Part shown: positions 6,421 to 61,817 of the stretch, piece by piece
Position numbering within the stretch: position 1 is the first letter of the stretch
Layout of the letters: the number at the start of each line of letters is the position of its first letter
Source of the DNA: Escherichia coli
GTDB lineage: Bacteria > Pseudomonadota > Gammaproteobacteria > Enterobacterales > Enterobacteriaceae
DNA length: 64,000 bases
Reading direction: 5' to 3' (one strand)
Assembly: GCF_002854065.1 (NCBI RefSeq)
Contig: NZ_CP024147.1
Notes under the pieces: model-generated
What the model saw: the letters and a program-made list of their open reading frames with translations, nothing else
Told to the model about the DNA's origin: nothing
Databases searched by the model: none
Translations under genes and position numbers: made by a program

Positions 6421-6744
6421 TCGTTTTTCCTTAAACAAGGAATGCAGCCGTTCAGATTAGCCCTTACATCTCCCCAAAACTGAACGTGCGAGTTATTGGA
6501 ATCGAGTGCTGCACTCCACACCAGAGCTTTGACGACACCACTCGTTTCAATGGGGGAATTCAGTGGCATGGTGTAAAGCACAGCAAAATTGCCAATAACG
6601 AAACCGATTTTAATGTACTTATCAAAAAGCGGTCACGTTAATCTTTTCATCAATGTCGATTTCTTCGTAAAGGCTCGCGTTTTTTATGTCAGAGATTGCA
6701 AGTTGCTTGTACAGGTCAACGAAATTGATCCATAATCATTTTCG

Positions 6745-6818
6745 TTGGAATCGTGTGCTGCACAAAATTAAAGTTAAAAAGTAAAACCCCCGTTCCTTAC
6801 CAGTTCGGGGGTTTTACT
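6745..6818 (+). ncRNA. ohsC: Candidate OhsC antisense sRNA (antitoxin of shoB); boundaries approximate
   Basis: Putative promoter (-35 TTGTAC 6707-6712, 18-nt spacer, -10 CATAAT 6731-6736), a 19-nt segment (6745-6763) that directly repeats 6496-6514 in the shoB 5' region with one mismatch, and a rho-independent terminator hairpin (AAAACCCCCG...CGGGGGTTTT, 6784-6815). Boundaries inferred, not measured. Confidence 0.45.
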
Positions 6819-6841
6819 TTATAAAGAGAACGGTATTATTT

Positions 6842-8704: not shown

Positions 8705-10317
<1,613 letters not shown>

Positions 10318-10559
10318 TCAGCACACGAAACAGACCTGATATACATGGCTCTGCTAACTGCTTCGCTGCAGTTTCAGTTTAGCGGTATATGGGGACCAAC
10401 GCTGTTTCGTGTGCCGTGGCAACCTGGAGGTGCCAACCTTAAACTTCGGGGGAATATTCTATACACAACGACGGGGGATGTCGTTAGCCACGGGAGATTT
10501 ATCTCATAAATAATTCACGTTGTCGCCATAACGGCGACAACGTGAACGAAGATGAGCTA

Positions 10560-11549: not shown

Positions 11550-13349
<1,800 letters not shown>

Positions 13350-13546
13350 AAAGTATGATTATTGTGCCTTAATGCCCGGTTAACCAGGCTTTTAGAAGTC
13401 GCTGTTCTGAGCTTAACGTCTGTATTAATAGAAACGCCGCATTCTACACTACAACATTGAGGCGAGGAAATGTTCATACCGTATGGATTGTGGTATCTGG
13501 AAACGTCCTCGCATTTGTTATGCAAAATGCAACAAAGCCAGTGAAA

Positions 13547-14026
13547 TCACTGGCTCGCGTCTTCCGAAGATGTTTCAAATCGCACAAGGCCAGGCGGCAA
13601 TGCCACGCTTAAGATGATCGGTTGCCATTCTGCCCGGGCAGCAAACTTACGCGAGTAGCCACGCGCAATCAGGAACCCGCCAATACCGCCGAGGACCGCA
13701 CCACATAATGCTGCGACGTCAGAAGCAAAGAGTAGCTGAAATAGCGAAGCGATGAGGAATAATCCCACCAGCGGCGACATATAAACCAGTAATGCGGAGC
13801 TAAGCAGGCTGCCTTCGGCGATCCCCAATTCCACTTTTTGCCCCGGCACTAACGGCTCATCACAGGGTACGACAATGGTATGCGTGGTTTGCGGGCCAAG
13901 TTTATTCAACACGCGGCTACCGCAACCGGCGCGTGAAGCGCAGCTGCTGCATGAGGCTTTAACATCACAACTGACCAGCGCCTGCCCGTTTTGCCAGGAG
14001 ACGACGGTAGCCCACTCTTTGATCAT
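13547..14026 (-). CDS. rseC: Sigma-E regulatory protein RseC
   Basis: 159-aa ORF MIKEWATVVSWQNGQALVSCDVKASCSSCASRAGCGSR... Confidence 0.93.
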   Translation of the reverse strand: MIKEWATVVSWQNGQALVSCDVKASCSSCASRAGCGSRVLNKLGPQTTHTIVVPCDEPLVPGQKVELGIAEGSLLSSALLVYMSPLVGLFLIASLFQLLFASDVAALCGAVLGGIGGFLIARGYSRKFAARAEWQPIILSVALPPGLVRFETSSEDASQ

Positions 14027-14979
14027 TGCGCTGCCCCGAACTTAATATTCTCGGCAATGCGTTTCGCCGTTTGCGGCGGCAGTTCACCGACAATGGTGAT
14101 TTCGGCGTTATCACGTACGCTTGTACTGACGGTTCTGCGTCCGGTGCGCAACATCTGATCGGTGCTCGATGGCGTAGCGCGGTTAACGTTTACCGAGAAG
14201 CTGAATAATCCGTCGGAATAGAGACGTGATTCGATAGGCATGTTGTCCATCGTCGGTAGCGGACGTCGACTACTGGAAACTTCGCTAAAACCCTGTGGCA
14301 ACCAGGTTGGCGTCCAGCTGAATTTAGCTTTTTCACCTACAGGAACAGAAAGCAACGGCGGCAAATTTGCCTTCGCCAGCGTCTGCATACTGCTGCTGAT
14401 ATCCTGATTGACGTTAAAAGCAATCACGCGAAATTGTTCCAGCGTTTCACCATCGCGATCAAGAAGATCAACCCGCATCGGTAATTTCGATTCGGTGTCC
14501 ATCCACACGATGTAGCTGTAGCGTGTACCATCTCGGGCAACCACGCGAATGACTTCGCAAAGACGATCAGCAATACGCGTGCGCCCGACGGAGATAAAGT
14601 CGTAGTAAGGAGAAAGGCGTTTGAAATCGGTATAGATGAGCGATGGCAGAGAATCAACAATGTAATCGCCATTAAGCGTGAACGGTTCAAGTCCCGGTTC
14701 AAAATAGCTGATTTCATTGCCGCGCTGTACCACTTCCCGGCGCGGGCCATCCATTTGCAACAATTGTGCAAGAGGACGGTTATCGAGGCGTGCATGTCGA
14801 TAACGCAGAGACTCAACACCCTGTTTATTGATGCTGATGAATGACAGCTCGTAATTCAGTGACTGACTGGCCAGGTTCATCTGCTGTAATAACGCCCCGG
14901 ACGCGGGAGTGGCCGAGGCGTTAGCAGAGAATAACAGGCTACCTGTCACTAATGACATGGCAAACCAAAGTTGCTTCAT
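14023..14979 (-). CDS. rseB: Sigma-E regulatory protein RseB (periplasmic)
   Basis: 318-aa ORF with signal peptide MKQLWFAMSLVTGSLLFSANASA; 4-nt overlap with rseC. Confidence 0.95.
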   Translation of the reverse strand: MKQLWFAMSLVTGSLLFSANASATPASGALLQQMNLASQSLNYELSFISINKQGVESLRYRHARLDNRPLAQLLQMDGPRREVVQRGNEISYFEPGLEPFTLNGDYIVDSLPSLIYTDFKRLSPYYDFISVGRTRIADRLCEVIRVVARDGTRYSYIVWMDTESKLPMRVDLLDRDGETLEQFRVIAFNVNQDISSSMQTLAKANLPPLLSVPVGEKAKFSWTPTWLPQGFSEVSSSRRPLPTMDNMPIESRLYSDGLFSFSVNVNRATPSSTDQMLRTGRRTVSTSVRDNAEITIVGELPPQTAKRIAENIKFGAAQ

Positions 14980-21369: not shown

Positions 21370-21471
21370 AACCCCAAACCTATCGAAAATATCGAATTTA
21401 GAATGTAAAAACATTCATTTTTTAAAATGTTCCGTGTCGGGTACTGTCTACCAAAACAGAGGAGATAACAA

Positions 21472-32118: not shown

Positions 32119-32238
32119 ATGCCTGGCAGTTCCCTACTCTCGCATGGGGAGACCCCACACTACCATCGGCGCTACGGCGTTTCACTTCTGAGTTCGGCAT
32201 GGGGTCAGGTGGGACCACCGCGCTACGGCCGCCAGGCA
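32119..32238 (-). rRNA. rrfG: 5S ribosomal RNA
   Basis: 120-nt reverse-complement match to E. coli 5S rRNA (TGCCTGGCGGC...GGAACTGCCAGGCAT). Confidence 0.95.
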
Positions 32239-32330
32239 AATTCTGTTTTATCAGACCGCTTCTGCGTTCTGATTTAATCTGTATCAGGCTGAAAATCTTC
32301 TCTCATCCGCCAAAACAGCTTCGGCGTTGT

Positions 32331-35233
<2,903 letters not shown>

Positions 35234-35426
35234 TCACAACCCGAAGATGTTTCTTGCGACTCATCATCGTGTTGCGAAAATTTGAGAGACTCACGAACAA
35301 CTTTCGTTGTTCAGTGTTTCAATTTTCAGCTTGATCCAGATTTTTAAAGAGCAAATATCTCAAACATCACCCGAAGATGAGTTTTGAGATATTAAGGTCG
35401 GCGACTTTCACTCACAAACCAGCAAG

Positions 35427-35502
35427 TGGCGTCCCCTAGGGGATTCGAACCCCTGTTACCGCCGTGAAAGGGCGGTGTCCTGGGCCTCTAGACGAAGGGG
35501 AC
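35427..35502 (-). tRNA. gltW: tRNA-Glu (spacer tRNA of the rrn operon)
   Basis: 76-nt reverse-complement match to GTCCCCTTCGTCTAGAGGCCCAGGACACCGCCCTTTCACGGCGGTAACAGGGGTTCGAATCCCCTAGGGGACGCCA. Confidence 0.95.
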
Positions 35503-35587
35503 GTATCAGTCTGCTTCGCAAGACGCCTTGCTTTTCACTTTCTATCAGACAATCTGTGTGAGCACTGCAAAGAACGCTTCTTTAAGG

Positions 35588-37129
<1,542 letters not shown>

Positions 37130-37572: not shown

Positions 37573-40146
37573 TTACTGGACGGCGACAATCCGGTCTTCA
37601 TTAACTTCCAGGCGAATCACTTTACCCGGAACCAATTCACCAGACAGTATTTGCTGTGCCAACGGGTTTTCGATCTGCTGCTGGATAGCACGTTTCAAAG
37701 GACGTGCACCATAGACTGGATCGTAACCGTTCTCGCTCAGCAGTTTCAGCGCCTCGTCAGAAATGTGGATTTCATAACCACGTTCTTCCAGACGTTTGTA
37801 CAGACGTTTCAACTGAATCTGCGCAATCGAGGCAATGTGCTGTTCGCCCAGCGGATGGAAGACCACCACTTCATCGATACGGTTAATGAACTCCGGACGG
37901 AAGTTATGGCTTACCACACCGAGCACCAGTTCTTTCATATGCGCATAATCCAGTTCACCGAAGCGTTCCTGAATCAAATCGGAACCGAGGTTAGAGGTCA
38001 TAATGACAACCGTATTACGGAAGTCGACCGTTCTCCCCTGCCCGTCAGTCAGACGCCCATCATCCAGTACCTGCAACAGAATGTTGAAGACATCCGGATG
38101 CGCTTTTTCCACTTCATCCAGCAGGATAACGGAATACGGACGACGACGCACAGCTTCGGTCAGGTAGCCACCTTCTTCATAACCAACATATCCCGGAGGC
38201 GCACCAACCAGACGAGACACCGAGTGTTTCTCCATAAACTCGGACATATCGATACGGACCATCGCCTCGTCGCTATCAAACATAAAGTTCGCCAGCGCCT
38301 TACAAAGCTCAGTTTTCCCCACACCAGTTGGGCCGAGGAACAGGAATGAACCAATCGGGCGATTTGGATCCGCCAGCCCCGCACGGCTACGACGAATAGC
38401 GTTAGATACCGCATCAACCGCTTCGTTCTGACCAATAACGCGATGGTGCAGTTCTTGCTCCATACGCAGCAGTTTTTCGCGCTCGCTTTCCATCATGCGA
38501 GAAACCGGAATCCCCGTCCAACGCGCCAGCACTTCAGCAATTTCGGCGTCGGTCACTTTATTACGCAACAGACGCATAGTTTTGCCTTCGAGCTGCGTTG
38601 CGGCTTCCAGTTGCTTTTCCAGCTCCGGGATTTTGCCGTATTGCAGTTCAGACATCCGCGCCAGGTCACCCACACGGCGAGCCTGTTCAATAGCGATTTT
38701 CGCCTGTTCCAGTTCCGCTTTAATGGTCTGCGTACCAGAAAGCGATGCTTTCTCTGCTTTCCACTCTTCTTCTAACTCGGAGTACTGACGTTCTTTGTCG
38801 CTCAGTTCTTCGTTGAGCATATCCAGACGTTTTTTACTGGCTTCATCAGACTCTTTCATTAACGCCTGTTGTTCCAGTTTGAGCTGGATGATACGGCGAT
38901 CGAGTCGGTCGAGTTCTTCTGGTTTTGAGTCAATCTGCATACGAATGCTGGATGCTGCTTCATCGATCAGGTCGATGGCTTTATCCGGCAGCTGACGGTC
39001 AGCAATGTAGCGATGAGACAACGTCGCCGCTGCAACAATTGCCGGGTCAGTAATTTGCACATGGTGGTGCAATTCGTAACGTTCTTTCAGGCCACGTAGA
39101 ATCGCAATGGTATCTTCAACAGAAGGCTCGGCAACAAACACTTTCTGGAAACGACGTTCCAGCGCAGCATCTTTTTCGATGTACTGGCGATATTCGTCAA
39201 GCGTCGTGGCACCTACGCAGTGCAATTCACCACGCGCCAGCGCCGGTTTCAGCATGTTTCCGGCGTCCATTGCGCCATCGGCTTTACCCGCGCCGACCAT
39301 GGTATGTAATTCGTCGATAAACAGGATGACGTTGCCTTCCTGTTTGGCAAGATCGTTAAGCACGCCTTTTAAACGTTCTTCAAACTCACCGCGATATTTC
39401 GCCCCAGCCACCAGCGCGCCCATATCCAGCGCCAGTACGCGGCGGCCTTTCAACCCTTCCGGCACTTCGCCGTTGATAATACGCTGCGCCAGACCTTCAA
39501 CGATGGCAGTTTTACCGACGCCGGGTTCACCAATCAGTACCGGATTATTTTTAGTACGACGTTGCAGCACCTGAATGGTACGGCGAATTTCTTCATCACG
39601 ACCAATCACCGGATCGAGTTTGCCCTGTTCGGCTCGTTCGGTAAGGTCGATGGTATATTTTTTCAAAGCCTGACGTTGGTCTTCAGCACCTTGATCGTTC
39701 ACGCTTTCACCTCCACGCATTTGTTCAATCGCTTGAGTAATGTTGGCGGTGGTCGCCCCTGCTGCTTTCAGGATGTCGGCCAGCGTGCCGCGAGACTCAA
39801 GTGCCGCCAGAACGAACAGTTCTGACGAGATAAAGTTATCACCACGTTTTTGCGCCAGCTTGTCGCAAAGATTAAGAACGCGCACCAGATCCTGTGATGG
39901 CTGGACATCACCACCAGTACCTTCAACCTGCGGTAAACGATTTAATGCCTGATTGATATCTGTGCGCAACTGGCCAGCATTTATGCCAGCTGATGTTAAC
40001 AAAGGACTAACCGAACCCCCTTCCTGATTCAGCAGGGCGCTCATTAAATGAAGTGGTTCGATGAATTGGTTGTCGTGCCCGAGTGCAAGTGATTGGGCAT
40101 CGGCAAGAGCAAGCTGGAATTTATTAGTAAGACGATCCAGACGCAT
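37573..40146 (-). CDS. clpB: Chaperone ClpB (AAA+ disaggregase)
   Basis: ORF 37573..40158 trimmed to [27 protein letters not shown]..., 857 aa; two Walker A sites ([16 protein letters not shown]). In-frame GTG at 39700-39702 (Val149) corresponds to the known internal start for the short ClpB isoform. Confidence 0.96.
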
Positions 40147-40182
40147 AACTCCTCCCATAACGGATCAAAGTTGCTACTGGAG

Positions 40183-40214
40183 ATTAAATGAGGTCATCCC
40201 TCAATTATTCAAGG
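40183..40214 (-). promoter_or_regulatory. Sigma-32 heat-shock promoter of clpB (CTTGAA ... CCTCATTTA)
   Basis: Minus-strand CCTTGAATaattgagggatgaCCTCATTTA approximates the sigma-32 consensus (CTTGAAA / CCCCATnT). Confidence 0.5.
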
Positions 40215-40275
40215 TTATTGACCAGATTAATGTGAAAAGAAAATCACACGTACCGGATCGTCTTGATTCTTTAGG

Positions 40276-43516: not shown

Positions 43517-43571
43517 TTGACAGCGTGAAAACAGTACGGGTACTGTACTAAAGTCACTTAAGGAAACAAAC

Positions 43572-43619
43572 ATGAAACACACACCGTTTTTCTTCGCATT
43601 CTTTTTTACCTTCCCCTGA
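43572..43619 (+). CDS. pheL: pheA leader peptide (Phe-rich attenuation peptide)
   Basis: ATG AAA CAC ACA CCG TTT TTC TTC GCA TTC TTT TTT ACC TTC CCC TGA = MKHTPFFFAFFFTFP*, 7 Phe in 15 codons. Confidence 0.85.
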   Translation: MKHTPFFFAFFFTFP

Positions 43620-43665
43620 ATGGGAGGCGTTTCGTCGTGTGAAACAGAATGCGAAGACGAACAAT

Positions 43666-43698
43666 AAGGCCTCCCAAATCGGGGGGCCTTTTTTATTG
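43666..43698 (+). terminator. pheA attenuator terminator
   Basis: AAGGCCTCCC-AAATC-GGGGGGCCTT hairpin followed by T-run, 20 nt upstream of the pheA start. Confidence 0.8.
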
Positions 43699-56692: not shown

Positions 56693-57571
56693 ATGAATAA
56701 TCATTTCAAGTGTATTGGCATTGTGGGACACCCACGGCACCCTACTGCACTGACAACACATGAAATGCTCTACCGCTGGCTGTGCACAAAAGGTTACGAG
56801 GTCATCGTTGAGCAACAAATCGCTCACGAACTGCAACTGAAGAATGTGAAAACTGGCACGCTCGCGGAGATTGGGCAACTGGCTGATCTCGCGGTAGTCG
56901 TTGGTGGCGACGGTAATATGCTGGGCGCGGCGCGCACGCTCGCCCGTTACGATATTAAAGTTATTGGAATCAACCGTGGCAACCTGGGTTTCCTGACTGA
57001 CCTTGACCCCGATAACGCCCAGCAACAATTAGCCGATGTGCTGGAAGGTCACTACATCAGCGAGAAACGTTTTTTGCTGGAAGCGCAAGTCTGTCAGCAA
57101 GATTGCCAAAAGCGCATCAGCACCGCGATAAATGAAGTGGTACTTCATCCAGGCAAAGTGGCGCATATGATAGAGTTCGAAGTGTATATCGACGAGATCT
57201 TTGCGTTTTCTCAGCGATCTGATGGGCTAATTATTTCGACGCCAACAGGCTCCACCGCCTATTCCCTCTCTGCGGGCGGTCCTATTCTGACCCCCTCTCT
57301 GGATGCGATTACCCTGGTGCCCATGTTCCCGCATACGTTGTCAGCACGACCACTGGTCATAAACAACAGCAGCACGATCCGTCTGCGTTTTTCGCATCGC
57401 CGTAACGACCTGGAAATCAGTTGCGACAGCCAGATAGCACTGCCGATTCAGGAAGGTGAAGATGTCCTGATTCGTCGCTGTGATTACCATCTGAATCTGA
57501 TTCATCCGAAAGATTACAGTTATTTCAATACATTAAGCACCAAGCTCGGCTGGTCAAAAAAATTATTCTAA
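56693..57571 (+). CDS. nadK: NAD kinase
   Basis: 292-aa ORF with GGDGN motif ([14 protein letters not shown]). Confidence 0.95.
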
Positions 57572-57578
57572 TTTTACG

Positions 57579-57630
57579 CCAGCCTCTTTACTGTATATAA
57601 AACCAGTTTATACTGTACACAATAACAGTA
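57579..57630 (+). promoter_or_regulatory. Tandem LexA (SOS) boxes in recN promoter
   Basis: TACTGTATATAAAACCAGTT (57579-57598) and TACTGTACACAATAACAGTA (57611-57630), both CTGT-N8-ACAG; a weaker third half-site follows (...CATACAG at 57641-57647). Confidence 0.7.
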
Positions 57631-57656
57631 ATGGTTTTTCATACAGGAAAACGACT

Positions 57657-59318
57657 ATGTTGGCACAACTGACCATCAGCAACTTTGCTATCGTTCGTGA
57701 GCTTGAGATTGATTTTCATAGCGGCATGACCGTAATAACTGGCGAAACCGGTGCGGGTAAATCTATTGCAATAGATGCCCTCGGTCTTTGTCTCGGTGGT
57801 CGCGCTGAAGCCGACATGGTGCGTACCGGCGCTGCTCGCGCTGACCTGTGCGCCCGTTTTTCTCTGAAAGATACGCCAGCGGCCCTGCGCTGGCTGGAAG
57901 AAAACCAGCTTGAAGACGGGCATGAATGTTTGCTTCGTCGCGTAATCAGCAGCGATGGTCGCTCTCGTGGTTTCATCAACGGTACAGCTGTTCCTCTGTC
58001 ACAACTGCGCGAACTGGGTCAGTTGCTCATTCAGATCCATGGTCAGCACGCTCATCAGTTACTCACCAAACCCGAGCACCAAAAATTCCTGCTTGATGGC
58101 TACGCTAATGAAACCTCTCTGCTCCAGGAAATGACCGCACGTTATCAGTTGTGGCACCAAAGCTGCCGTGACCTCGCGCATCATCAACAGTTAAGTCAGG
58201 AACGCGCTGCCCGTGCGGAACTGCTGCAATACCAATTAAAAGAACTTAACGAATTTAATCCGCAGCCCGGAGAGTTTGAGCAAATCGACGAAGAGTACAA
58301 ACGTCTGGCGAACAGCGGTCAATTGCTGACCACCAGCCAGAATGCATTGGCATTAATGGCCGACGGTGAAGACGCAAACCTGCAAAGTCAGCTTTACACG
58401 GCTAAACAACTGGTGAGCGAATTGATTGGCATGGACAGCAAACTGTCCGGCGTACTTGATATGCTGGAAGAAGCTACCATCCAGATTGTTGAAGCCAGCG
58501 ACGAACTGCGCCACTACTGCGATCGTCTGGATCTCGATCCCAACCGACTGTTTGAACTTGAACAGCGCATCTCAAAACAGATTTCGCTGGCACGTAAACA
58601 TCACGTCAGCCCTGAGACATTGCCACAGTATTACCAGTCGCTACTGGAAGAACAGCAGCAACTGGACGATCAGGCCGACTCACAAGAAACGCTCGCGCTG
58701 GCGGTAACGAAACATCATCAGCAGGCACTGGAAACGGCGCGCGCATTACACCAGCAACGCCAGCATTATGCAGAAGAACTTGAACAGCTGATCACCGACA
58801 GCATGCATGCGCTCTCAATGCCGCATGGGCAGTTTACGATTGATGTCAAATTTGACGAGCATCACCTGGGCGCTGACGGCGCCGATCGTATTGAGTTTCG
58901 GGTAACCACCAACCCAGGTCAGCCAATGCAGCCTATTGCCAAAGTCGCATCCGGTGGTGAATTGTCCCGCATCGCATTGGCAATTCAGGTCATCACGGCG
59001 CGTAAAATGGAAACCCCGGCACTGATTTTTGATGAAGTGGATGTAGGGATTAGCGGTCCAACAGCGGCAGTTGTCGGCAAACTGCTGCGTCAACTCGGCG
59101 AATCAACTCAGGTGATGTGTGTTACCCACCTGCCACAAGTCGCGGGATGTGGTCATCAACACTATTTTGTCAGCAAAGAAACCGATGGTGCGATGACAGA
59201 AACGCATATGCAATCTCTGGATAAAAAAGCGCGGTTACAAGAGCTGGCGCGCCTGCTTGGTGGCAGTGAAGTCACACGTAACACACTGGCGAATGCGAAA
59301 GAACTGCTTGCGGCGTAA
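57657..59318 (+). CDS. recN: DNA repair protein RecN (SMC-like ATPase)
   Basis: 553-aa ORF with Walker A GETGAGKS and long coiled-coil region. Confidence 0.97.
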
Positions 59319-61454: not shown

Positions 61455-61817
61455 GGGGCTGATTCTGGATTCGACGGGATTTGCGAAACCCAAGGTGCAT
61501 GCCGAGGGGCGGTTGGCCTCGTAAAAAGCCGCAAAAAATAGTCGCAAACGACGAAAACTACGCTTTAGCAGCTTAATAACCTGCTTAGAGCCCTCTCTCC
61601 CTAGCCTCCGCTCTTAGGACGGGGATCAAGAGAGGTCAAACCCAAAAGAGATCGCGTGGAAGCCCTGCCTGGGGTTGAAGCGTTAAAACTTAATCAGGCT
61701 AGTTTGTTAGTGGCGTGTCCGTCCGCAGCTGGCAAGCGAATGTAAAGACTGACTAAGCATGTAGTACCGAGGATGTAGGAATTTCGGACGCGGGTTCAAC
61801 TCCCGCCAGCTCCACCA
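61455..61817 (+). ncRNA. ssrA: tmRNA (SsrA), 363 nt
   Basis: Starts GGGGCTGATTCTGGATTCGACGGG, contains tag reading frame GCAAACGACGAAAACTACGCTTTAGCAGCTTAA (ANDENYALAA*), ends with tRNA-like ...GGTTCAACTCCCGCCAGCTCCACCA. Confidence 0.97.

What the first reader, a model, noticed from the sequence alone, without database searches (positions are those of the whole stretch)
57579..57650. Two to three SOS boxes stacked over the recN promoter
TACTGTATATAAAACCAGTT and TACTGTACACAATAACAGTA are both CTGT-N8-ACAG LexA operators within 52 bp, with a weaker third element before the recN ATG. This explains the tight SOS control of recN. Known biology, clearly visible in the sequence.
Basis: partly seen in the sequence, partly recalled or inferred. 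Interest (0 to 1): 0.15.

Follow-up and report, generated by a model that had tools for sequence, protein, structure and literature searches.

The report
Three LexA operators on recN promoter
The short gap before the E. coli DNA-repair gene recN carries three adjacent binding sites for the SOS repressor LexA laid over the promoter; this is a textbook arrangement, correctly spotted and already known.

Summary
The window is E. coli chromosome, and the finding lies in the 85-nt nadK-recN gap. Three LexA (SOS) boxes are present:
- Box 1, 57589-57608, TACTGTATATAAAACCAGTT.
- Box 2, 57611-57630, TACTGTACACAATAACAGTA.
- Box 3, 57629-57648, TAATGGTTTTTCATACAGGA, a weaker match ending 8 nt before the recN ATG (57657).

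A matrix built from 16 other E. coli SOS boxes ranks these three sites 1st, 2nd and 3rd of 63,981 positions in the window. The -35 (TTTACT) and -10 (TATACT) hexamers each end in the TACT that opens boxes 1 and 2, so bound LexA covers both RNA-polymerase contact points. Box 3 lies in the transcribed leader, next to the ribosome-binding site.

The 48/26/8-nt geometry equals that published for Salmonella recN. It is kept in most Enterobacterales, Vibrio and Aeromonas loci sampled. The 62-nt promoter-operator block is identical in 5357 of 5425 E. coli records.

Verdict: real, correctly interpreted, already known, low interest. Box 3's own contribution, and a possible roadblock to nadK read-through, remain untested.

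The parts
56693..57571 (+). nadK coding sequence. It is the upstream neighbour on the same strand, and its stop codon ends 15 nt before the recN -35 hexamer.
   Evidence: ORF of 292 aa; annotated nadK, NAD(+) kinase, in E. coli records.
57587..57592 (+). recN promoter -35 hexamer TTTACT. Its last four bases are the first four of box 1.
   Evidence: Consensus scan. C-TTTACTG is invariant across 27 genera while the DNA just upstream is not conserved.
57589..57608 (.). LexA box 1, TACTGTATATAAAACCAGTT (core CTGT-N8-CCAG). It covers the -35 hexamer and the spacer.
   Evidence: 24.4 bits, rank 1 of 63,981 positions. Listed as the recN SOS box in PMC3009722 Table 4. Conserved in all 42 Enterobacterales loci.
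57609..57614 (+). recN promoter -10 hexamer TATACT. Its last four bases are the first four of box 2.
   Evidence: Consensus scan. TATACTG is kept in nearly all aligned loci.
57611..57630 (.). LexA box 2, TACTGTACACAATAACAGTA (exact CTGT-N8-ACAG). It covers the -10 hexamer and the inferred transcription start near 57621.
   Evidence: 17.7 bits, rank 2. Exact pattern match. It starts 22 bp after box 1, as in 38 of 42 Enterobacterales and 11 of 11 Vibrionales loci.
57629..57648 (.). LexA box 3, TAATGGTTTTTCATACAGGA. The left half is weak (ATGG instead of CTGT). It lies in the transcribed leader, and its right half runs into the Shine-Dalgarno AGGA.
   Evidence: 14.2 bits, rank 3. It sits 8 nt from the ATG, like the published third box of Salmonella recN. 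A site of at least 9 bits at the same offset is present in 27 of 37 Enterobacterales, 8 of 11 Vibrionales and 2 of 2 Aeromonas unique sequences, against a null of 0.0001 per position.
57645..57648 (+). Probable Shine-Dalgarno sequence AGGA, 8 nt before the ATG. It overlaps the right end of box 3.
   Evidence: Read from the sequence; inference.
57657..59318 (+). recN coding sequence (553 aa), ending in ...ELLAA.
   Evidence: ORF; annotation. C-terminal signals for ClpXP degradation are described in PMC10714372.

Best explanation
This is the LexA-repressed promoter of the E. coli SOS gene recN. In undamaged cells LexA dimers occupy box 1 (over the -35 hexamer and spacer) and box 2 (over the -10 hexamer and the start site), so RNA polymerase cannot bind. 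A third, weaker dimer site (box 3) lies about +9 to +28 in the leader. It adds a further block or stabilises the array. After DNA damage, RecA filaments trigger LexA self-cleavage, the boxes empty and a fairly good promoter fires, giving one of the largest inductions in the regulon.

Shown here: the sequences, their statistical strength, their exact overlap with the promoter hexamers, and their conservation. Taken from papers: three boxes in E. coli and Salmonella, LexA-dependent footprints in vivo, and strong induction. Inferred: the start site near 57621, the individual contribution of box 3, and any cooperativity between dimers.
For: - The PWM trained without recN ranks the three boxes 1, 2 and 3 in 64 kb, and shuffles rarely or never reach boxes 1-2.
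- The only promoter-like site has its hexamers embedded in boxes 1 and 2.
- The distances of 48/26/8 nt to the ATG are identical to published Salmonella recN, which is induced 39-fold and has heterology indices of 8.82/7.72/12.97, all below the usual cut-off of 15.
- Three SOS boxes are stated for E. coli recN.
- Repressor footprints on the recN promoter disappear on H2O2.
- After ciprofloxacin, recN mRNA rises to log2 4.63 and RecN protein to 6.79, above recA (3.78) and lexA (3.48).
- Of 120 loci fetched by a RecN N-terminus pattern, all 42 Enterobacterales and all 11 Vibrionales have a strong box. Successive strong boxes are 22 bp apart in 56 of 84 cases.
- Column information in 27 genera is 2.0 bits for -35, 1.78 for box 1, 1.38 for box 2 and 1.10 for box 3, against 0.32 just upstream.
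- The 62-nt block is identical in 5357 of 5425 E. coli records, whereas the 88-nt gap is identical in only 3529 of 5426. In the three genomes sampled the common variant lies outside the boxes.
Against: - No physical LexA binding was measured here, and the original mapping paper (Rostas et al. 1987) could not be read.
- Box 3 is weak. It lacks the C of CTG in its left half, is at chance level on a whole-window basis, and was missed by FIMO in Salmonella.
- Box 3 falls below 9 bits in 10 of 37 Enterobacterales sequences and in all Shewanella.
- Its right half overlaps the ribosome-binding site, which could explain part of its conservation.
- Species counts are inflated by shared ancestry.
Confidence: 0.9

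Rival explanations
1. Only boxes 1 and 2 are working operators. Box 3 is a non-functional resemblance produced by an AT-rich leader plus the Shine-Dalgarno sequence (ACAGGA).
For: - Box 3 scores 14.2 bits, and such sites occur 0.21 times per shuffled 64 kb.
- Its left half is ATGG, not CTGT.
- FIMO missed it in Salmonella and it was added by hand.
- It falls below 9 bits in Klebsiella sp. BIGb0407, Enterobacter sp. Ag1, Hafnia, Edwardsiella, Budvicia and Pectobacterium.
Against: - It is still the third-best site in the window and lies next to the two best.
- The left-half TG(G/T) stays at the same offset in most of the Enterobacterales, Vibrio and Aeromonas sequences aligned, while the base before it varies A/T/G/C. 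In Erwinia, Pantoea, Mangrovibacter and Rahnella it is a full CTGT, up to 18.0 bits.
- It reaches at least 9 bits in 37 of 50 sequences, against a null of 1e-4 per position.
- The leader shows no RNA structure that could explain the conservation (z = -0.57).
- It is listed as a third box in the literature.
Confidence: 0.22
2. Besides blocking initiation, the row of LexA dimers acts as a roadblock. It would stop transcripts reading through from nadK from expressing recN in undamaged cells.
For: - nadK is co-oriented and ends 15 nt before the recN -35 hexamer.
- No terminator-like site lies in 57400-57800.
- The same-strand nadK-recN order is kept in 79 of 104 loci with enough upstream DNA.
- Box 3 lies downstream of the start site, where it cannot compete with polymerase binding.
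Against: - There are no expression data across the junction.
- The terminator scan is a simple consensus scan, and Rho-dependent termination is not covered.
- LexA has not been shown here to block elongating polymerase.
- nadK may simply be weakly transcribed.
Confidence: 0.15
3. The palindromes are chance features of an AT-rich promoter and are not LexA sites.
For: The region has 33% G+C, which favours TA-rich matches.
Against: In sequence of the same composition, a score as high as box 2's has a per-position chance of 3.7e-6, and box 1's score was never reached in 1e7 positions. The sites are also conserved and the published evidence agrees.
Confidence: 0.01

Closest known systems
E. coli recN promoter as published (Rostas et al. 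1987; Fernandez de Henestrosa et al. 2000; cited in PMC10714372 and PMC8072944)
   Same: It is the same locus. Three SOS boxes are stated for E. coli recN, and box 1 is printed in PMC3009722. From my own memory, not verified here, the 2000 paper lists exactly these three 20-mers with heterology indices of about 5.2, 9.4 and 11.5.
   Different: Nothing differs. This window is 100% identical to many sequenced E. coli strains.
Salmonella enterica recN promoter (PMC8072944, Table 1)
   Same: Three boxes at 8, 26 and 48 bp from the ATG, exactly as here. The proximal box is the weakest (HI 12.97), and the gene is strongly induced (39-fold).
   Different: Different species. The Salmonella box sequences were not read here.
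The lexA gene's own tandem operators
   Same: Two adjacent SOS boxes over one promoter, about two helical turns apart (21 bp start to start, from my memory of the sequence).
   Different: lexA has two boxes rather than three. In recN both promoter hexamers are built into the left arms of the boxes, which fixes the 22-bp spacing.
Overlapping double SOS boxes of colicin promoters (for example cea, caa)
   Same: More than one LexA dimer site per promoter gives very low basal expression (established knowledge, not tested here). Boxes 2 and 3 of recN also share 2 bp as 20-mers.
   Different: Colicin boxes overlap more (about 16 bp centre to centre, from memory) and lie downstream of the -10. recN boxes 2 and 3 are 18 bp apart.
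Single-operator SOS promoters (sulA, umuDC, recA)
   Same: The same repressor, the same CTGT-N8-ACAG motif, and a position on or next to the promoter.
   Different: One box against three.

Membership tests
LexA operator (SOS box) of the E. coli / gammaproteobacterial type | A 16-bp dyad CTGT-N8-ACAG within the 20-mer TACTG(TA)5CAGTA. | tested here: met
   Box 2 is exact. Box 1 has one departure (CCAG) but keeps CTG-N10-CAG. Box 3 departs twice in the left half (ATGG) and keeps ACAG on the right.
LexA operator (SOS box) of the E. coli / gammaproteobacterial type | A matrix or heterology score within the range of proven sites (heterology index below about 15). | tested here: met
   Scores are 24.4, 17.7 and 14.2 bits, against a training range of 13.9-27.5 bits. 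My own heterology indices from 16 sites are 2.1 and 5.9 for boxes 1 and 2, and 8.8-14.4 for box 3 depending on strand. The cut-off of 15 is quoted. Box 3 is at the weak end of the range.
LexA operator (SOS box) of the E. coli / gammaproteobacterial type | Placed on or just beside the promoter of the regulated gene. | tested here: met
   The -35 at 57587-57592 and the -10 at 57609-57614 overlap boxes 1 and 2. Box 3 lies between the inferred start site and the ATG.
LexA operator (SOS box) of the E. coli / gammaproteobacterial type | Physical binding by LexA (footprint, gel shift or ChIP). | not testable with these tools
   From papers only. Repressor footprints on the recN promoter are lost after H2O2. 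The original footprint paper is not held. No per-box data were seen for box 3.
LexA operator (SOS box) of the E. coli / gammaproteobacterial type | The downstream gene is induced by DNA damage in a LexA-dependent way. | not testable with these tools
   From papers only. recN is UV-induced, induced 39-fold by nalidixic acid in Salmonella, and rises to log2 4.63 after ciprofloxacin.
LexA operator (SOS box) of the E. coli / gammaproteobacterial type | Conserved at the orthologous promoter in relatives that use the same LexA motif, and absent where that motif is not used. | tested here: met
   A strong box lies upstream of recN in 42 of 42 Enterobacterales, 11 of 11 Vibrionales and 37 of 37 Alteromonadales loci. 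None is found in 5 Legionellales or 5 non-proteobacterial loci.

The most novel reading that the evidence does not exclude
The three-dimer LexA array may do more than occlude the recN promoter. nadK is co-oriented, ends 15 nt before the -35 hexamer, has no detectable terminator, and keeps this order in 79 of 104 loci sampled (mostly Gammaproteobacteria). The array, box 3 in particular, may therefore serve as a damage-releasable roadblock that insulates recN from nadK read-through. In Legionellales loci, which have no LexA-type box, the two genes abut with a gap of 6 nt or less (a 4-nt overlap in one), like an operon.
Probability: 0.15. Interest if true: 0.35.

Novelty: already known. Interest (0 to 1): 0.1.

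Why it matters
It matters little as a discovery. The recN promoter with its multiple SOS boxes has been described since the 1980s and is widely used as an SOS reporter. Its value here is as a positive control, because reading raw sequence recovered a real and correctly interpreted regulatory element.

Three small additions came out of this check:
- The exact embedding of both promoter hexamers in the operator arms explains the fixed 22-bp spacing.
- The weak third box is conserved in position across most sampled members of three orders.
- The gap between nadK and recN has no detectable terminator.

Tried and rejected
- **Papers not held.** I tried to read the primary mapping paper (Rostas et al. 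1987, PMID 3037486 / PMC305946), Courcelle et al. 2001 (PMC1461638) and Charpentier et al. 2011 (PMC3067580). None is held, so operator mapping rests on secondary citations.
- **Full-text search for the three 20-mers.** It found only box 1, in one paper.
- **RNA structure in the leader as another reason for box 3 conservation.** Rejected: the fold of 57621-57690 is ordinary (-11.2 kcal/mol, z = -0.57).
- **Known RNA family in the region.** None; Rfam hits lie elsewhere in the window.
- **Intrinsic terminator between nadK and recN.** None was found by the consensus scan.
- **Other exact CTGT-N8-ACAG matches in the window (21444, 27619, 31767).** Their scores are 12.9 bits or less, at the level of the best site in shuffled sequence, so they were not pursued as LexA sites.
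- **Two reviews searched for statements on multiple recN boxes.** Nothing specific was found.
- **Two papers searched for a statement that Legionella lacks LexA.** No such statement was found, so that point rests on my own knowledge.

Full report
**What is there.** The window is E. coli chromosome. A 401-nt query around the finding matches 5425 of 5426 complete E. coli genomes, several at 100%, and the features under the match are annotated nadK and recN. nadK (56693-57571, +) is followed after 85 nt by recN (57657-59318, +, 553 aa). Three 20-mers lie in that gap:
- Box 1, TACTGTATATAAAACCAGTT, at 57589-57608.
- Box 2, TACTGTACACAATAACAGTA, at 57611-57630.
- Box 3, TAATGGTTTTTCATACAGGA, at 57629-57648.

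They end 48, 26 and 8 nt before the ATG. Two details need correcting. Box 1 has the core CTGT-N8-CCAG, not ACAG: the exact pattern finds only box 2, while the looser CTG-N10-CAG finds both. The two strong boxes span 42 bp, not 52.

**Is it more than chance?**
- I built a position weight matrix from 16 E. coli SOS boxes printed in Table 4 of PMC3009722, leaving recN out.
- Scanning both strands of the window, the three recN sites score 24.4, 17.7 and 14.2 bits. They rank first, second and third of 63,981 positions; the next best site has 12.9 bits.
- In 300 dinucleotide-preserving shuffles the best score averaged 12.3 +/- 1.9 bits. One shuffle reached 17.67 bits and none came near 24.
- Box 3 would not stand out alone, since 0.21 such sites occur per shuffled window. 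In sequence with the local 33% G+C the per-position chance is 3e-5, so one falling between box 2 and the ATG is about a 1-in-1000 event.

**Relation to the promoter.**
- The only sigma-70-like promoter in 57400-57800 is TTTACT (57587-57592), 16 bp, TATACT (57609-57614).
- Each hexamer ends in TACT, which is also the first four bases of box 1 and box 2 respectively.
- The 22-bp distance between the boxes therefore equals the hexamer-to-hexamer distance. A LexA dimer on box 1 covers the -35 and the spacer, and one on box 2 covers the -10 and the start point.
- I infer the start point near 57621 from the -10; no mapped start site was available to me.
- Box 3 then lies at about +9 to +28. Its right half, ACAGGA, runs into the probable Shine-Dalgarno AGGA (57645-57648).
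- Centre-to-centre distances are 22 bp (about two helical turns, roughly the same face) and 18 bp (about 1.7 turns). Whether the dimers cooperate is not known from this work.

[quoted passage not shown] The protein in the window ends ...ELLAA.
- PMC8072944 lists Salmonella recN with three boxes at 8, 26 and 48 bp from the ATG, the same geometry. Their heterology indices are 12.97, 7.72 and 8.82, and induction by nalidixic acid is 39-fold. The paper also notes that FIMO missed the third box.
- PMC3009722 lists box 1 among motifs upstream of UV-induced genes.
- PMC12133099 (mutational footprinting) reports that the repressor sites on the recN promoter are seen in glucose medium and disappear after H2O2.
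- PMC11002266 shows recN mRNA rising to log2 4.63 and RecN protein to 6.79 after ciprofloxacin, more than recA or lexA, and quotes the usual cut-off of a heterology index below 15.
- The original paper by Rostas et al. (1987) is not held. From memory only, it and Fernandez de Henestrosa et al. (2000) describe these same boxes.

**Conservation within E. coli.**
- The 62-nt block from the -35 to the end of box 3 is identical in 5357 of 5425 records.
- The whole 88-nt gap is identical in only 3529 of 5426 records.
- In the three genomes I aligned, the common difference is G-to-A at 57653, between the ribosome-binding site and the ATG. One divergent strain (MLI114) also has TAATGG changed to TAATAG in box 3.

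**Conservation across genera.**
- A degenerate DNA pattern for the RecN N-terminus (M-L-x-x-L-x-[IV]-x-N-F-A-I-V), which does not depend on the operators, brought in 120 loci from one-genome-per-species contigs. All of them encode RecN-like N-termini with the Walker A motif.
- Scanning 250 nt upstream with the same matrix, all 42 Enterobacterales, all 11 Vibrionales and all 37 Alteromonadales loci have at least one box of 14 bits or more.
- A pair exactly 22 bp apart is present in 38 of 42 Enterobacterales and 11 of 11 Vibrionales loci.
- Among successive strong boxes, 22 bp is the spacing in 56 of 84 cases.
- The five Legionellales and five non-proteobacterial loci have none.
- Aligned on box 1, C-TTTACTG is invariant and TATACTG nearly so, while the 11 nt upstream carry 0.32 bits per column. 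The other values are 2.0 bits for the -35, 1.78 for box 1, 1.38 for box 2 and 1.10 for the part of box 3 not shared with box 2 (27 genera).

**Box 3 across genera.**
- At the box 3 offset, a site of at least 9 bits is present in 27 of 37 unique Enterobacterales, 8 of 11 Vibrionales and 2 of 2 Aeromonas sequences. The frequency is 0.0001 per position in far-upstream DNA of the same loci.
- The left half keeps TG(G/T) while the preceding base varies: A in Escherichia, Citrobacter and Enterobacter; T in many Vibrio; G in Photorhabdus, Serratia and Providencia; C in Erwinia, Pantoea, Rahnella and Mangrovibacter. In the last group the site becomes a good box, up to 18.0 bits.
- These counts are inflated by shared descent.
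- The site is lost in Shewanella, some Vibrio, Pectobacterium, Budvicia, Hafnia and Edwardsiella.
- Box 3 is therefore probably real but dispensable.
- The leader RNA has no unusual structure that could explain the conservation instead (z = -0.57).

**Mechanism.** LexA dimers on boxes 1 and 2 exclude RNA polymerase from both hexamers. Box 3 adds a weaker downstream block or helps hold LexA locally. RecA-stimulated self-cleavage of LexA empties the sites and a reasonably good promoter (9 of 12 consensus matches) fires. Together with ClpXP removal of RecN, this gives very low basal expression and a sharp pulse. The sequence anatomy, statistics and conservation are shown here. Binding and induction come from the cited papers. 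The start site, the role of box 3 and any cooperativity are inferred.

**Rivals.**
- **Only two working operators (confidence about 0.2).** This is supported by the weakness and patchy retention of box 3. It is opposed by the box's positional conservation and its inclusion in published lists.
- **An added roadblock function against nadK read-through (about 0.15).** This is suggested by the co-oriented nadK ending 15 nt before the -35, the lack of a terminator-like site and the conserved gene order (79 of 104 loci). No expression evidence supports it.
- **Chance palindromes (about 0.01).** This is excluded by the statistics and the conservation.

**Verdict.** The feature is already known and its interest is low.

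Noticed in passing
window 56693-57656; loci L004-L123: nadK and recN are co-oriented neighbours in 79 of 104 loci with at least 1 kb upstream. The gap is about 85 nt in Enterobacterales. No terminator-like site lies between them in the window, so nadK transcripts would run into the LexA array.
   Followed up: partly
L025, L036, L047, L073, L090 (Legionellales): These loci have no LexA-type box upstream of recN, and nadK and recN almost abut (gap 5-6 nt, or a 4-nt overlap), like an operon. From my own knowledge, not verified here, Legionella lacks LexA.
   Followed up: partly
window 57587-57614; alignment: Both promoter hexamers (TTTACT, TATACT) end in the TACT that opens an SOS box. This fixes the 22-bp box spacing, and C-TTTACTG is invariant across the 27 genera compared, from Escherichia to Vibrio and Aeromonas; in the wider alignment several Shewanella have A instead of C before TTTACTG. 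The adjacent upstream DNA is unconserved.
   Followed up: yes
window 21442-21461: An exact CTGT-N8-ACAG (TACTGTCTACCAAAACAGAG) lies in the divergent yfiE-eamB intergenic region. It is the fourth-best LexA-matrix score in the window (12.9 bits) but at the level expected by chance. It might be a site for the LysR-type regulator YfiE instead.
   Followed up: partly
window 59298-59318 (end of recN): RecN ends in ...ELLAA, resembling the ssrA-tag ending. PMC10714372 says ClpXP degrades RecN via C-terminal signals. The tmRNA gene itself lies 2 kb downstream at 61455-61817.
   Followed up: no
L002 (E. coli MLI114), equivalent to window 57633: A natural G-to-A change turns the left half of box 3 from TAATGG to TAATAG. 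This is a ready-made test of whether box 3 matters.
   Followed up: no
L010 and L068 (Shewanella); L004, L014, L054, L061, L064, L089, L105, L118 (Pseudoalteromonas): Other multi-box layouts occur. Two Shewanella species have three strong boxes (63/41/21 nt from the ATG). Pseudoalteromonas has two boxes 23-24 bp apart, the second overlapping the recN start codon.
   Followed up: no
window 6744-6820, 10233-10447, 13231-14062, 32121-37129, 40127-40265, 43571-43696: Rfam hits elsewhere in the window are ohsC, rncO, AsrC, an rRNA operon with a tRNA and StyR-44, RyfD and the Phe leader. All are expected for this part of the E. coli chromosome.
   Followed up: no
E. coli genome search: One E. coli record classed as a plasmid also carries a copy of the nadK-recN junction (1 of 5427 places). 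It was not found with the 62-nt query and was not examined.
   Followed up: no
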